Assembly (NCBI GenBank): GCA_964016885.1
Contig: OZ024743.1
Location: 349,990,001-350,054,000, forward strand
Direction of reading: 5' to 3'
Source: Eledone cirrhosa
Taxonomy: Eukaryota
Length of the DNA stretch: 64,000 nt
The notes under the pieces are model-generated. The model did not search any database and had not been told where the DNA came from. It saw only the letters and a list, made by a program, of their open reading frames with translations. Positions 1,352-52,234 of this stretch are shown here, in pieces (positions within the stretch are counted from its first letter, which is position 1; every line of letters starts with the position of its first letter). A program made the position numbers and the translations under genes.

Positions 1352-1866
1352 GGATAAGAGGAAAGCACAAACGAGGGACATTTCCCTTCATCAGTTGTCT
1401 GTTGGAGATTACGGACATTTCTACGCATTAAAGACAATATGTTTATCTCCAGTGCCTCAATAACTATAGGAAGTTATTGGGGGAAAATGAGAGAGAAAGA
1501 GTATAAGAGTAGCCGGTTTTGACTTGCCTCCCCCTCTCTCTCTCTCTCTCTCTCTCTCTCTCTCTCTCTCTCTCTCTCTCTCTCTCTTCCGTTGCTTACA
1601 TACATGTGCTTTTCGTGTTTCCCTTTTCGGTATTTTCTCCGCATTTTCCTCCTTTTTCCCTTCTGTTATATTTTTCTCTCTCTCCTTTTTCCCCAATAAC
1701 TTCCTATAGATATTGACGCACTGCAGCTAGACATATTGTCTTTAAGGCGTAGAAATTTCCATAATCTCTAGCAGAAAACAGATGATGGGAAATGTCCTCC
1801 GTTTGTGCTTTCCTCTTATTTCTAAATACCCTTTATCCAGTAACCACATAGCTCCCTGTTTCTTCT
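1352..1866. mobile_element. Non-coding tailed fold-back element (PLE-like), old
   Basis: Imperfect inverted arms ~1352-1500 and ~1670-1822 around a (CT)n core, short tail, flanked by (CA)n. CTGATGA-AGG-GAAA on the minus strand at 1381-1394. Confidence 0.55.
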
Positions 1867-2158
1867 ACACACACACACACACACACACACACATACACAC
1901 ACACACACACGCACGCACACACACACACACACACACACACACACACACACACACACGCACACACACATATACACACACACGCACGCACACATATACACAC
2001 ACTCACACACACATATATATATATACACACACACATATATATATACACACACACACATATATATATATATATATATATATATATATATATATATATATAC
2101 ACATATGTGATAAATAAGTATGCAAAATGGAATTTGACAATAATTTATTCGGAAATTG

Positions 2159-2237
2159 TCCATTACAAATGTTTTGAAGAGTTCTATGTCTATGGAGTGT
2201 ATGGTTCCATAGTATCTATCCGGCCTCTTCAGATGAA
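2159..2237 (-). ncRNA. Degenerate type I hammerhead motif
   Basis: Minus strand TTCAT-CTGAAGA-G..CTATGGA/TCCATAG..C-AAAA-CATTTG-TA-ATGGA. Stem I pairs, and GAAA is changed to AAAA. Confidence 0.45.
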
Positions 2238-2429
2238 CCACCGAGCATTAGTTTTATTAATCCTGGTTCTCTGCATATACTCCGCTGGACCATTAGATGA
2301 AATCTACGATGCTTCAAGATGTTCAGTGCTGGTCATCTACGTGCATATAATATATAATATAATATAATGTAATATATATATTTATGTGTGTGTGCGTGTG
2401 AGTGTGTACACTCATATTTATCGACAGTC

Positions 2430-2692
2430 AATCGACTCTTCGTCAAATCCTACCGAGGAAATAACGTTTCCATTGGTCTTTCCAATTGCTAATACTATCT
2501 ATCGGTCGCAACCCCATAAGGTGCAACGTGAACGAGGAATGTGAAGGAGCAACGTGAAGGAGCAACGTGAAGGAGCAACGTGAAATATAGTGTCTTGCCC
2601 AAGGTCATAACGCATCACCAAGTCCGAGAATTGAACTCACATCCCCCCGATTGCGAATCCATTTCTCTAACCACACAGACACGAGCTTTCAC
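2430..2692 (-). repeat. tRNA-derived SINE remnant
   Basis: gtgtcttgcccaagg...gaattgaactc...ctctaaccac reads as a tRNA-like head (A/B boxes) on the minus strand. Confidence 0.5.
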
Positions 2693-2801
2693 ATATTTAT
2701 ATATACATAAACACACACACACACCACACACACATACACACACACACACACACACACACACACATATATATATATATATATATATATATATATATATATA
2801 T

Positions 2802-48280: not shown

Positions 48281-49574
48281 ACGTATATATATATGAATAT
48301 GTAAACATATAAAGAAGTTTAATAAAATATGCAAACTGGCACATCTCCGCTGTTATTGGCACATTTGATGGGTTTATTAGGTTGTTAAGTACATATTTCT
48401 CTGTTGATTAAGCTATTTGTGTTTTAAATCTTGGAGAAATACGTAAATAAGTGTTTTTTTACTAATTTACTTAAATACATGCGTGCGTTTACGTACATAT
48501 TTCTTGCAGCTTCAGTAAAATCCAATATTGTATCTTTACAGATACAAGTTTACGAATTTCTTATCACCTTTTATAGTTCCTGACATAACTAATTCCAATT
48601 ATTGGCCTCTAAACTTTAGAAATTTATTATATTGCCAAAGAAGTGAGGATGAACCAACTCAAGTTGATTTGTTTGTATTTGGAAACCTGAAGAGCTAATC
48701 TTTGGTTGAGACGAGGACTGGTTTCTGTCCAATGTACAGATAAATAGGGACTGGAGCAAGATGACAGCCAGGATCACCAATCCCACTGAGAAATGGGTTA
48801 ATCTATTCTTGAAACGTTAGGTATAAATAGTTAATAACTAATTTCTTTTTCGTACCATTTAACTACCGTAAACTTTCTTGAGTAACGTCAGGTGACGGAT
48901 GAATTATGGTTAGTTCTTAAATGTTAGAAACATCAATAATAAAGATAGAAGATAAACCTCCGTCGGTTTAGACGATGGAATGGCATACTTATGAGATTAA
49001 CGTCAAAGTGACTGAGTATTCTACTGAAACGTGTATCTTTAAGGCACAACAATATGTGACAGGTGTGCACCTTTAGATTACAGGTACAATCCAAACAGTT
49101 TACGCCTATCCACACAAAGCTTGAGGCAACAATACAAACGTAATGTCTGATTAATGAAAATATGCAGGCGGAAACTGCTTGGAGGCTCGTGCCATGATAA
49201 GTCTCTATGAGAATTACGTTAAGGATACACGTGTTCATGAAATGTTCAGCCAGTTACATTTTAATTTCATGGGTAGGTTTTTCTTTTGATTGAAAACAGA
49301 ACTTCTCGTCGATCTGATGCAAGTCCAGTCTACTCATGCTTCTGATAGCAATGTAGCTTAATTACAGGTTCTAGGTGAACTCTACTACCTTCTAGGATGT
49401 ACAAAAGAAACAAGGAATCGGACGGCCATCGCTAAAGTACTGTTCTCTACAATTATGTAAAACATCTGTTGTAGGAAGGAATCGATTATTATCTGAATTA
49501 ATGAGGAAGATTGCTCATTCGATTTCCCTTTATCTGTCAGGGGAAAACATCTGACTTGCTCCTCAAAATCTTGA

Positions 49575-50030
49575 AGATATTAATTTGATTAAAATAACAG
49601 GAAGAAGGACTGGTAATATTCCTTTACAGTTTTATTGTTGCAAAGACACTATATATATCTTTCAATGGCTTGGTTACGTAAGATCCTGGTGACGTCATTA
49701 GGTTAGAATTGCATAATTAGGGGATCAGTAAAGGAATTGCGGCAAACACGAACAGAGAATAGAGAAAATATGGGAAATATTTGATAAGGAGATGGCCTGC
49801 AAAATAGGTGTTATTTTTGCTGCAGACCATCGCCGAAATTTTAAAGAAACATTACCAAACTGGCTTCCTGTTATTTTAATCAAATTAATATTTAACTCCA
49901 TTCCGACACCAGCCATGGGATTCAACATCAACGATGGATAAGTTGCGTAACGTAGAGTCCTTTTCCTACTTATACCACATGATTAACTAAACTGAATGAC
50001 CAGTTCTATCCAGAGGTGAACAACCAAACA
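49575..50030 (+). mobile_element. Older copy of the 40480 tailed fold-back family
   Basis: Arms ~49577-49635 and ~49838-49892. Tail homologous to 40865-41018. Confidence 0.65.
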
Positions 50031-50631
50031 TAATATTTTATTATTCAGTTGGGCATAGATATGTATAATTTAGAAACATTGCATACAGGAATACTTTGAC
50101 AACGGCCAAACAGCCAGAAACAGCTGTCAGTTTCTTCCCCCTTTATTCTGCCGAAACAAGGTAGCCAGTCATCACCTTCGATATTCATAGCTAAAGGCTT
50201 TCAAATGTTTATTCGTAAACATATCGTATATTATTCGATATACAAACTTTACAAACATTTATACAGCTTTGTTTGAGCGAACATAATATTTCCCTCTCCC
50301 CGCTCTCTCACTCTCTCTCTCTCTCTCTCTATATATATATATATATATATATATATGCATACACACTCACACACATATATATATATATAAACACACATAT
50401 ATATATACACATATATATACACACACACATATATATATATATATATATATATATATATATATATATATATATATATATATATTATTATTATTATTTATTA
50501 TTCTCTACATTCCTTACATCAAACTAAAATATGTTGACAATCTTTTAATAATGTCTTCCTTGCGAAATTTGTGGTCTTGTTTTGCTTAACTAATGAATAT
50601 ATATATATATATATATATATATATATATATT

Positions 50632-51065
50632 TTAGTATATGTTGGTTGTATACCAATACGTTAGTATGCAGATTGGAGCACTCGACGAAGTGCGCAGGTT
50701 GGTTTTGTTACTCCGGAGTAATGTAAAATAAAATAAAATAAAATAAATAAGTCAACTATTTAAAATTTGGCTTTGTTTATTACTGCTATATATATTTCGG
50801 TGACAGTCCGAATTAGTGTGGTAGAGACGAGTACACATGTTGTTGAGGTGTTTAACTTTGTCAATACTCAATGAAACTACAACCCAACCAGGAACTGGGC
50901 ATATCAGAGTATTGACAAAGTTAAACATGTGTACTCGTCTCTACCACACTAATTCGGAATGCCTGAAGAGGTCACAGCCAAAGATGGCTATCACCGAAAT
51001 ATATATAGCAGTAATAAACGAAGCCAAATTTTAAACATTTGACTTATTTATTTTATTTTATTTTA
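50632..51065. mobile_element. Non-coding tailed fold-back element with hammerhead
   Basis: Tail 50632-50723. Arms ~50724-50868 and ~50907-51065. (TA)n flanks. Confidence 0.8.
50958..51012 (+). ncRNA. Minimal type I hammerhead ribozyme
   Basis: TGC-CTGAAGA-GGTCACAGCCA-AAGA-TGGCTATCACC-GAAA-TATATA-TA-GCA. Intact core, long stem II, palindromic stem III, 3-bp stem I. Confidence 0.75.
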
Positions 51066-52072
51066 TATATCTATATATATCTATATATATATATATATAT
51101 ACATATATATATTCCACAATAACTTCCTTTAAGAAATACAAGGGAATTTACATTTTAACCATTCTGCTCTGAGGAAACGGTAGAAACAGCATTTGAAAAT
51201 TGAGTTTCTGCAAATAATTACAAATAATTACCAATTTGCACATAGCATGGCTAGTCTGTATAACTAATGTTGAAACATTTGTAAGCACTCGGAATAAATT
51301 ACCTTTTTTATGATGTCTACCTGTTATTATTCATTCTTTATATATATATATACATATATATATATATATATATATATTTATATATATATATATATATATA
51401 TATATATATATATATATATATATATATATATATATATATATATATATATGTATGTATGTATATATATATATACATACACAGTGGGTAACCAAGACTGCAC
51501 CACTATATATATACATAAATGTATATATATATGTGTGGGGGGGGGGGGTGTAAAAGTTAAACAGAAATAACAAAACAAACGATAGAGTACATAGAAGACA
51601 TATATTAGTTTAACGCTTGAAATAGCAGGAAAAGACTCATAACGTTTCGGACACTAGTCATTGATAAGAAGATAGAGTTCGATATAGAAGATAAATAGCA
51701 AGTAAAACGTGATAAGAGGAAGGAACGAGCAAAATATTGGGGGAAAAGGGAAGAGAAAAACACACGGGCGCTTATTAAATTTTGCTAATCTATCTCCGGC
51801 GAATTTTTATTGTACGGGATTCATATCGATACAGCAGCTGGAGAATCTAATAATTATTTTATTTTACATTAAAAATACATTATATGTGACAAAAAAAAAG
51901 AACATTACAAGAAATCCCATATTTACGAACATACACTATACAATTAGTGATTTCCCCACCACCGTTGATTCCAACCCCTCTGCTGATGAGAATTTAAGCA
52001 AATGTCCACCCACCTACTTATTCCAACTCCCCTATTATTTGGGACACGAGATTATATATATATATATATATA

Positions 52073-52234
52073 TAGTAATAATAATAAATTTGAAGACTAA
52101 AATCCAAACAGAGCTCGATAAGGATAAATATATATCAAATATATAAGAGAACCGTAGAGCAAGTTTCAGAAGATCCCGTTAAGGGTGAAAGCAGCGATTC
52201 TTTGCTTAAACTTTAATCTGTTATTTTAATAAAT
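52073..52234. mobile_element. Minimal derivative of the 2802-4993 PLE: tail plus flipped arm
   Basis: 52073-52162 matches 2802-2887. 52163-52234 is the reverse complement of ~2891-2962. Confidence 0.8.

What the first reader, a model, noticed from the sequence alone, without database searches (positions are those of the whole stretch)
1352..52234. A recurring tailed-palindrome insertion architecture in (TA)n across about ten unrelated PLE and non-coding families
Seen: elements at 1352, 2802, 11427, 17243, 20421, 32834, 35736, 40480, 49575, 50632 and 52073 consist of two oppositely oriented copies of the same 3' region. One copy stops at a fixed point and the other continues ~40-160 nt as a unique tail. 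Almost all abut (TA)n or (CA)n. Arms range from ~55 bp to 1.46 kb, and either the long or the short copy can bear the tail. Known: PLEs often have inverted pLTRs and 3' tails. Inference: integration uses two priming events at two family-specific sites on opposite target strands, joined at their 5' ends, and a large non-coding parasite population exploits this machinery.
Basis: partly seen in the sequence, partly recalled or inferred. Interest (0 to 1): 0.75.

Follow-up and report, generated by a model that had tools for sequence, protein, structure and literature searches.

The report
Penelope insertions pair tailed, untailed ends
These mirror-image inserts in TA repeats are head-to-head ends of Penelope-like jumping genes, a published layout, and almost every one pairs one tailed end with one untailed end, likely because both cut DNA strands prime copying of one RNA from two different fixed start sites.

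Summary
The architecture is real. Ten of 11 listed elements have inverted arms plus a one-sided tail of about 41-157 nt. The eleventh (52073) has both end types but no shared arm. They are Penelope-like elements (PLEs), in eight families. Six families run into RT/GIY-YIG coding sequence (mostly Hydra clade), so most 'non-coding' palindromes are truncated copies of coding elements. Two (1352, 40480/49575) have ORF-less tandem units. Inverted copy plus tail in (TA)n is published, as are two reverse-transcription start sites bounding the tail (Frangieh 2024).

I did not find the following in print. Every pair in the tail-unbiased set joins one tailed and one untailed end (73 of 73; 136 of 137 overall). 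Either arm may be longer. Arms in one young family share private variants (11 vs 0.35 expected). Clean junctions show 2-3 nt microhomology. Short arms stop at Inr-like motifs.

Best reading: two-site twin priming on one RNA, with stubs as run-off products. The scan noted this pattern before on other DNA (e1-8669363, e1-8890239, e1-10345399). Known system, new testable rule.

The parts
1352..1867 (+). Family 1352 insertion: untailed inverted arm 1354-1512, sense arm 1660-1819, tail 1820-1867, between (CA)n tracts. Family unit is 540-601 nt with no ORF (likely non-autonomous)
2803..4991 (-). Family 2802 insertion: tailed long copy on the minus strand (tail 2803-2897, GIY-YIG frame 3987-4583 with CxCX5C linker), short untailed arm 4908-4991, in (TA)n
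11427..12848 (+). Family 11427 insertion: untailed inverted arm 11427-11880, sense copy starting inside the GIY-YIG coding region, tail 12808-12848. EN has CxxC between GIY and YIG (canonical type, not Hydra)
17244..17452 (.). Family B stub (diverged subfamily): tail on the left, ~50-nt arms, in (TA)n
20422..20613 (.). Family B stub: tail 20422-20501, arms 20502-20555 and 20560-20613. Longer genomic copies carry Hydra-type RT/EN and a U3-A8 hammerhead; arms stop at an Inr-like motif
32833..35702 (+). Hydra-type PLE: short untailed inverted arm 32833-32935, frameshifted RT-EN 32978-35021, hammerhead-like motif near 35424, tail 35573-35702
35735..40057 (+). Young Hydra-type PLE (family A): tailed inverted arm 35735-37304 (tail 35735-35844), short inverted templated piece 37305-37346, 5'-truncated RT-EN 37339-39420 with an in-frame stop near 38926, untailed end at 40057
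40481..41016 (.). Family 40480 stub: untailed left arm, right arm 40720-40859, tail 40860-41016. Family unit ~1.96 kb, no PLE ORF found; hammerhead core in 20 distinct copies
49577..50033 (.). Older relative of 40480: arms 49577-49632 and 49836-49891, tail to ~50033, no microsatellite flank
50630..51066 (.). Family 50632 stub: tail 50630-50727, arms 50728-50869 and 50907-51066, hammerhead-like core at ~50960-51010. Long genomic copies have PLE EN/RT sequence upstream of a ~1.4 kb 3' region
52075..52227 (.). Family 2802 stub with both end types but no shared arm: tail-only piece 52075-52162 ending at the untailed site, joined to an opposite 66-nt arm 52162-52227
17524..18540 (.).

Best explanation
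These are insertions of endonuclease-bearing Penelope-like retrotransposons into (TA)n, and each palindrome likely forms when the two cut target strands each prime reverse transcription on the same element RNA, one at the untailed site and one at the tailed site, after which the two cDNAs are likely joined at the element's 5' ends. SHOWN: PLE identity; two fixed 3' ends per family; one tailed and one untailed end per insertion; either arm long; variable inner junctions with short microhomology or extra bases; shared private variants between arms in family A. PUBLISHED (another PLE, in vitro): both strands are cut and extended, and RT starts at two internal sites that bound the tail. INFERRED: that both primings occur in one complex (a dimer is predicted in PMC11167929) with one site per strand; that joining is microhomology-mediated end joining; and that the abundant ~190-550 bp stubs are run-off products. 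In that last step, priming at the two sites in the 5' pLTR would copy only to a transcript start at an Inr-like motif, so the stubs would be abortive products of coding elements, not parasites. When only one strand primes, the 5' end is joined directly to the target (8 of 21 family A loci). Two ORF-less families likely borrow the machinery in trans.
For: Pairing: 73 of 73 tail-unbiased pairs (28 random sample, 17 incidental, 28 found with queries lacking the tail) and 136 of 137 overall are tailed+untailed; independent choice of sites allows at most 50%. It holds in Hydra-type, canonical-type and ORF-less families. Geometry of the 136: tailed arm longer 42, untailed longer 42, equal 38, tailed piece confined to the tail 14; in those 14 neither half contains the other. 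Same template: 11 shared derived variants in 6,280 bp of family A arm pairs vs 0.35 by permutation, P about 2e-4. Junctions: in families A and 11427, 12 of 21 are flush or overlapping, and 10 of those 12 have 2-3 nt microhomology vs 13-18% in simulated joints. Run-off: 31 of 41 unpicked untailed arms of family B stop 48-63 nt upstream of the end, with an Inr-like TCATTT at 63 and a TATA-like box at 88; family 2802 peaks at 71-75 (11 of 46) with TTAGTT at 75; family 40480 has an edge at 228-233 at TCACTT. In tandem copies the tail runs on into the next unit's 5' segment, so the start sites are internal. Literature: PMC11167929, PMC8557442.
Against: All mechanism evidence is genomic inference. 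In vitro, start-site use did not differ between top and bottom strand, and pairing within one event was not reported. Shared variants could come from gene conversion between arms; family 11427 showed 0 shared in 1,351 bp (0.12 expected, no power). One tailed+tailed copy exists (L059); a looser count also gave a second (L085) and one untailed+untailed pair spanning a TA tract (L188), both dropped by the filters. Nine of 21 young junctions, and 55 of 83 overall, carry extra bases, some of it noise from divergence. Copies are not fully independent (8 of 58 family B pairs share one length). Inr/TATA matches are short motifs, recalled as consensus and read after seeing the peaks; families A, 11427 and 1352 show no such peak. 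Staggered endonuclease cutting of a DNA intermediate could also give unlike ends.
Confidence: 0.7

Rival explanations
1. Self-priming or fold-back: the RNA or first cDNA folds back and primes its own copying, giving a hairpin whose ends the endonuclease later trims to the tailed and untailed positions (self-priming proposed in PMC3846280; EN-mediated resolution of the tail in PMC8557442).
For: Explains identical arms and shared variants, and short palindromes or microhomology at junctions. D. virilis EN needs the tail sequence for cleavage, as cited in PMC11167929. A staggered cut would give unlike ends.
Against: In 14 of 136 insertions, including 52073, the two halves share no sequence, and in 42 the tailed arm is the shorter one. 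A cDNA primed at the untailed site holds no tail to copy. RT starts at exactly the two tail-bounding sites on RNA in vitro. Single-armed copies use the same two ends.
Confidence: 0.18
2. The short palindromes are a large population of self-propagating non-autonomous elements (MITE- or SINE-like) that move as fixed palindromic units.
For: Very abundant, about 80-90 per Mb in the sample. Family B lengths cluster near 190-205 bp and one junction recurs. Two families have ORF-less tandem units. About 34 other families were not tested for ORFs.
Against: Inner junctions differ from copy to copy. Families B, 2802, 11427 and 50632 continue into RT/EN sequence. The ORF-less families have linear tandem units and make their palindromes per insertion like the others.
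Confidence: 0.07
3. Two independent insertions of the same family landed back to back in one TA tract.
For: TA tracts are dense (1,527 per Mb) and nested or adjacent insertions are common in the loci.
Against: No TA lies between the arms, end types pair non-randomly, arms share private variants, and mismatched ends match in only 2-6 of 1,106.
Confidence: 0.03
4. Assembly or long-read chimera artefact.
For: No public contig laid spanned both arms of one element.
Against: Arms are 84-99.6% alike, not identical. Ends are family-specific and one-sided. A single-copy contig of run X1 runs from unique flank through the left arm into the spacer of 49575, and 20 contigs of runs X1 and X5 leave the family at the tail end 50033 into TA (X1 may be the assembled sample).
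Confidence: 0.02

Closest known systems
Inverted 5'-truncated copy plus one-sided tail of EN+ Penelope-like elements (PMC3846280: parts 1-4 of 5 read; PMC8557442: passages and section 11; PMC8969392: passages)
   Same: Head-to-head arrangement, 5' truncation, partial tandems, tail at one end only and at either end, (TA)n targets.
   Different: Tails are about 41-157 nt here, not 30-40 bp. Those papers call the tail optional or 'often' present and explain it by EN resolution or self-priming; they give no per-insertion pairing counts.
PAc (Poseidon, Anolis carolinensis) internal initiation at two adjacent sites (PMC11167929: parts 1-2 of 4 read, three supplements searched)
   Same: Two internal RT start sites bound the tail, both target strands are nicked and extended, AT-rich targets, and the tail lies in the start of the next tandem unit.
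   Different: Different clades (mostly Hydra). The paper does not address inverted insertions or whether the two sites are paired in one event. In family A the tail lies about 50 nt upstream of the likely start codon, not inside the ORF.
Hydra clade of C-terminal EN+ PLEs (PMC8557442 section 11)
   Same: RWK, DKT, CxCX5C linker, no CCHH, CxxC/CxH around E and N, (TA)n insertion, hammerheads in several families.
   Different: Family A's unit is 3.1 kb (Hydra generally under 3 kb), and no complete hammerhead was found in it. Family 11427 has CxxC inside GIY-YIG and is not Hydra.
LINE-1 twin priming
   Same: Both target strands prime cDNA on one RNA and the products are joined by microhomology.
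   Different: In L1 the second primer anneals at variable internal sites and gives non-overlapping inverted 5' segments in a minority of insertions. Here both sites are fixed, arms overlap into a palindrome, and both outer ends are element 3' ends.
Non-LTR retrozymes and non-autonomous PLE derivatives (bioRxiv 10.64898/2026.07.22.740005: part 1 of 5; PMC4209133: part 1 of 4; PMC8557442 passage on MRC1)
   Same: ORF-less tandem units related to pLTRs, with a type I hammerhead (family 40480; tandem at 40155-40450). PMC4209133 also notes hammerhead pairs 100-700 bp apart on opposite strands.
   Different: Units are 540-601 nt and ~1.96 kb. No hammerhead was found in family 1352. They are seen mainly as tailed palindromes, not arrays.

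Membership tests
EN+ Penelope-like elements | Single ORF with RT and C-terminal GIY-YIG endonuclease | tested here: met
   Family A ORF of about 780 codons with one stop in L291; Pfam GIY-YIG E=7e-4 for 38929-39417; RVT_1 and GIY-YIG below curated cut-off for family 11427; tblastn links for B, 2802, 50632. Pfam did not recognise the Hydra RT core itself.
EN+ Penelope-like elements | Partial tandem (pLTR), inverted 5'-truncated copy, one-sided tail | tested here: met
EN+ Penelope-like elements | Hammerhead motif in the pLTR | tested here: inconclusive
   Full core in 39 distinct copies of 50632, 20 of 40480, 6 of B and once in 32834; none found for A, 2802, 11427, 1352. The relaxed descriptor gives 9 window sites vs 0-4 in 20 shuffles. 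Cleavage not tested.
EN+ Penelope-like elements | Target-site duplication | not testable with these tools
   Insertions lie in (TA)n; no empty site was obtained.
EN+ Penelope-like elements | RT phylogeny sister to telomerase | not tested
   No reference set of PLE or TERT proteins was fetched.
Hydra clade | RWK and DKT motifs, CxCX5C linker, no CCHH, CxxC before E..N | tested here: met
   All in family A; CxCX5C plus DKT-like and/or CxxC..E..N in 32834, 2802, B and 50632. Not met for 11427.
Hydra clade | Insertion into (TA)n | tested here: met
Non-autonomous PLE / retrozyme | Tandem unit without ORF | tested here: met
   Family 1352: three tandem loci, units 540 and 601 nt, longest frame 75 codons in the 540-nt unit. 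Family 40480: one whole 1,958-nt unit, longest frame 145 codons, no colinear PLE protein hit in 12 loci. Not met for B, 50632, 11427, 2802.
Non-autonomous PLE / retrozyme | Circular RNA and self-cleavage | not testable with these tools
   No RNA holder was listed.
MITE (DNA transposon) | Symmetric terminal inverted repeats and fixed internal sequence | tested here: not met
   Ends are asymmetric and junctions vary; only 5 of 92 sampled segments are symmetric.

The most novel reading that the evidence does not exclude
Penelope-like elements integrate by an obligate asymmetric twin-priming reaction: one complex uses one RNA, gives one of two fixed internal start sites to each cut target strand, and joins the two cDNAs head to head. 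Priming in the 5' pLTR runs off the transcript start and has left on the order of a quarter of a million dead-end palindromes in this genome. The rule spans two PLE clades and ORF-less passengers, and would explain the tail, the inverted pLTR and the stubs in one step.
Probability: 0.55. Interest if true: 0.65.

Novelty: new member of a known kind. Interest (0 to 1): 0.46.

Why it matters
How PLEs make their tandem/inverted structures and tails is named as unresolved in PMC8557442 and left open in PMC11167929. A near-absolute one-tailed/one-untailed rule, common origin of the two arms and run-off edges give sharp predictions for the existing in vitro system. In practice, the many short hammerhead-bearing palindromes in such genomes would be abortive PLE insertions, not MITEs, microRNA hairpins or new ribozyme replicons, which matters for repeat annotation. 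The elements and their layout are not new.

Tried and rejected
Rfam scan of the window: the 150 listed of 212 matches were all below gathering score, mostly microRNA-family hits on simple repeats; no hammerhead family among them. First scan script timed out. The first control (45 of 1,106 random segments) was invalid because random cuts fall inside real palindromes and TA tracts; it was replaced by shuffles and mismatched ends. A reversed-not-complemented control gave 24 of 1,106, probably from low-complexity ends. Fourteen of the 19 'symmetric' segments were cuts at short internal TA runs. Folding of five tails showed no stability beyond shuffles (z -0.73 to +0.60), so no shared tail structure is claimed; three hammerhead regions also did not beat shuffles. 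The peak at 89 nt for family 2802 came from a deletion in the reference and vanished with a better one. Laying contigs on the 35736 junction was uninformative (multi-copy depth, no bridging piece). No RNA holder was listed. No link of family 1352 to nearby EN hits in L153/L179 was found (they lie outside the element). Paper searches for a published pairing rule or PLE twin priming found none; the library lacks most subscription papers (e.g. Arkhipova 2006, Evgen'ev and Arkhipova 2005), and figures and most supplements were not seen. No structure or complex prediction was run.
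Full report
Setting. The window lies on contig C4 of a 3.0-Gb animal genome. Pfam finds angiotensin-converting-enzyme exons in the frames at 793-1431 and 21751-22062, so at least the first five elements lie in introns. An earlier scan note calls the genome octopus-like; I did not test that.

Observation. After masking simple repeats, self-BLAST and local alignment confirm inverted arms with a one-sided overhang at 10 of 11 listed sites, with arms of 48-1,460 bp, 84-99.6% identity and tails of about 41-157 nt. 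Site 52073 has the two end types of family 2802 in opposite orientation but no shared arm. Site 49575 lacks a microsatellite flank. The 11 sites fall into 8 families. In 100 evenly spaced 10-kb stretches, 92 of 1,106 microsatellite-bounded segments have terminal inverted arms, against 0 shuffled and 2-6 with mismatched ends. Of the 92, 73 are directly tailed (27-295 nt), 14 continue past a short internal TA run and 5 are symmetric. Twenty-six match the window's families and 66 form about 34 other clusters. Scaled up, that is roughly a quarter of a million copies; this is an extrapolation from 1 Mb.

Identity. Family A (35736) has a 3.1-kb unit with an RT-GIY-YIG frame carrying RWK, DKT, CxCX5C and CxxC..E..N and lacking CCHH, the features given for the Hydra clade (PMC8557442 section 11; lead from e1-9887947). 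Families 32834, 2802, B (17243/20421) and 50632 share some of these motifs. Family 11427 has CxxC between GIY and YIG and hits RVT_1 and GIY-YIG below cut-off. Family B and 50632 look non-coding in the window, but longer copies run into RT/EN sequence: L039, L057, L185, L235 for B. For 50632, 20 of 30 loci found with an inner query had PLE protein hits, nearly all just upstream. Family 1352 shows tandem junctions in three loci with units of 540 and 601 nt and no long frame. Family 40480 shows a 1,958-nt unit in one locus and no colinear PLE protein hit in 12 loci. So six families are coding and two likely non-autonomous. Hammerhead cores recur in 50632, 40480 and B.

Two fixed ends. In seven families, 3' ends followed by microsatellite pile up at two positions separated by the tail length, while inner junctions vary. 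In tandem copies the tail continues into the next unit's 5' segment, so both ends are internal positions of the RNA. This matches the two internal RT start sites that bound the tail in PAc, whose protein cuts and extends both target strands (PMC11167929).

Pairing rule. I counted de-duplicated insertions with both ends at a microsatellite, under 7 kb and without an internal (TA)7 tract; single-armed copies were not counted. Of 137, 136 pair a tailed with an untailed end. The tail-unbiased subsets give 73 of 73 (random 28, incidental 17, inner-query 28), where independent choice of sites allows at most half. The exception is L059. A looser earlier count also showed L085 (tailed+tailed) and L188 (untailed+untailed across a TA tract). 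The tailed arm is longer in 42, the untailed in 42, equal in 38, and in 14 the tailed piece lies wholly within the tail, so the halves share nothing. Of 21 family A loci, 13 are two-armed and 8 single-armed (5 untailed, 3 tailed; 6 joined at the 5' end straight to TA-like sequence). Copies are not fully independent, but all 13 family A junctions differ.

One template. Family A arm pairs (11 pairs, 10 insertions) share 11 derived variants in 6,280 bp against 0.35 by permutation (P about 2e-4). Family 11427 shows 0 in 1,351 bp with 0.12 expected. Gene conversion is not excluded.

Joining. In the two youngest families 12 of 21 junctions are flush or overlapping, and 10 of the 12 have 2-3 nt microhomology against 13-18% in simulated joints (P about 2e-6); 9 carry extra bases, some templated. 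Over four families, 55 of 83 measurable junctions have extra bases, partly noise from divergence.

Why so many short stubs. Following a lead in e1-8890239, I measured how far arms reach. In family B, 31 of 41 unpicked untailed arms stop 48-63 nt upstream of their end and only 2 stop at 64-120. An Inr-like TCATTT has its A at 63 and a TATA-like box starts at 88. Family 2802 peaks at 71-75 (11 of 46) with TTAGTT at 75. Family 40480 has an edge at 228-233 at TCACTT, in query-picked copies. The Inr consensus is recalled; TATA plus Inr in a pLTR is described in PMC3846280 and an internal Penelope promoter in PMC2377424 (passages). Families A, 11427 and 1352 show no such peak. I infer that priming in the 5' pLTR copies only to the transcript start.

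Artefact check. A single-copy contig of run X1 crosses from unique flank through the left arm of 49575 with one difference, and contigs of X1 and X5 leave the family at 50033 into TA. None spans both arms, and X1 may be the assembled sample. Diverged arms and family-specific one-sided ends argue against chimeras.

Comparison. The layout, the tail and the (TA)n preference are in print (PMC3846280; PMC8557442). Those papers favour self-priming or EN-mediated resolution; PMC11167929 adds the two start sites. Searches found no paper stating the pairing rule, single-template origin or run-off; the library lacks most subscription papers, and figures and most supplements were not seen. The scan's own notes report similar readings on other DNA; they are not independent support.

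Verdict. Real, and a known kind of element and insertion. The pairing rule is the part worth following up. Interest 0.46.

Noticed in passing
window 40155-40450: Two 147-nt tandem units, each with a type I hammerhead core (40219, 40366), between (TG)n and (TA)n; retrozyme-like. The unit's fold does not beat shuffles.
   Followed up: partly
window 17524-18540: Another inverted-arm element with a direct duplication (17524-17793/17959-18234) and a hammerhead motif at 18384; 26 hits in the 1-Mb sample.
   Followed up: partly
window 793-1431 and 21751-22062: Exons of an angiotensin-converting-enzyme (Peptidase_M2) gene; the PLE insertions between them are intronic.
   Followed up: no
window 6015-9737 (-): Uninterrupted 1,240-codon frame of an AP-endonuclease/RT LINE with C-terminal C2H2 fingers; further RT fragments at 29079-30158 and 60654-62420.
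   Followed up: no
window 5015-5048, 21093-21145, 11196-11362, 19994-20060/21523-21589, 23784-23913/41588-41842: Small stubs of families 40480 and A, and further inverted or related pieces beside TA tracts; the 19994/21523 arms enclose the 20421 element and a 640-bp TA array.
   Followed up: no
L039, L185, L235, L252, L319 (family B): The TATA- and Inr-like motifs lie inside loop II of the hammerhead, which has the U3-A8 core variant described in PMC4209133; a transcript starting there would lack the ribozyme's 5' half.
   Followed up: partly
L122-L149 (family 11427): The untailed end varies over about 8 nt, often where the element offers 1-4 nt of TA/AT identity with the target.
   Followed up: partly
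L277:3208-4068, L204:6778-7221: Symmetric terminal inverted repeats in TA, probably DNA-transposon MITEs (mariner-like end recalled, not tested).
   Followed up: no
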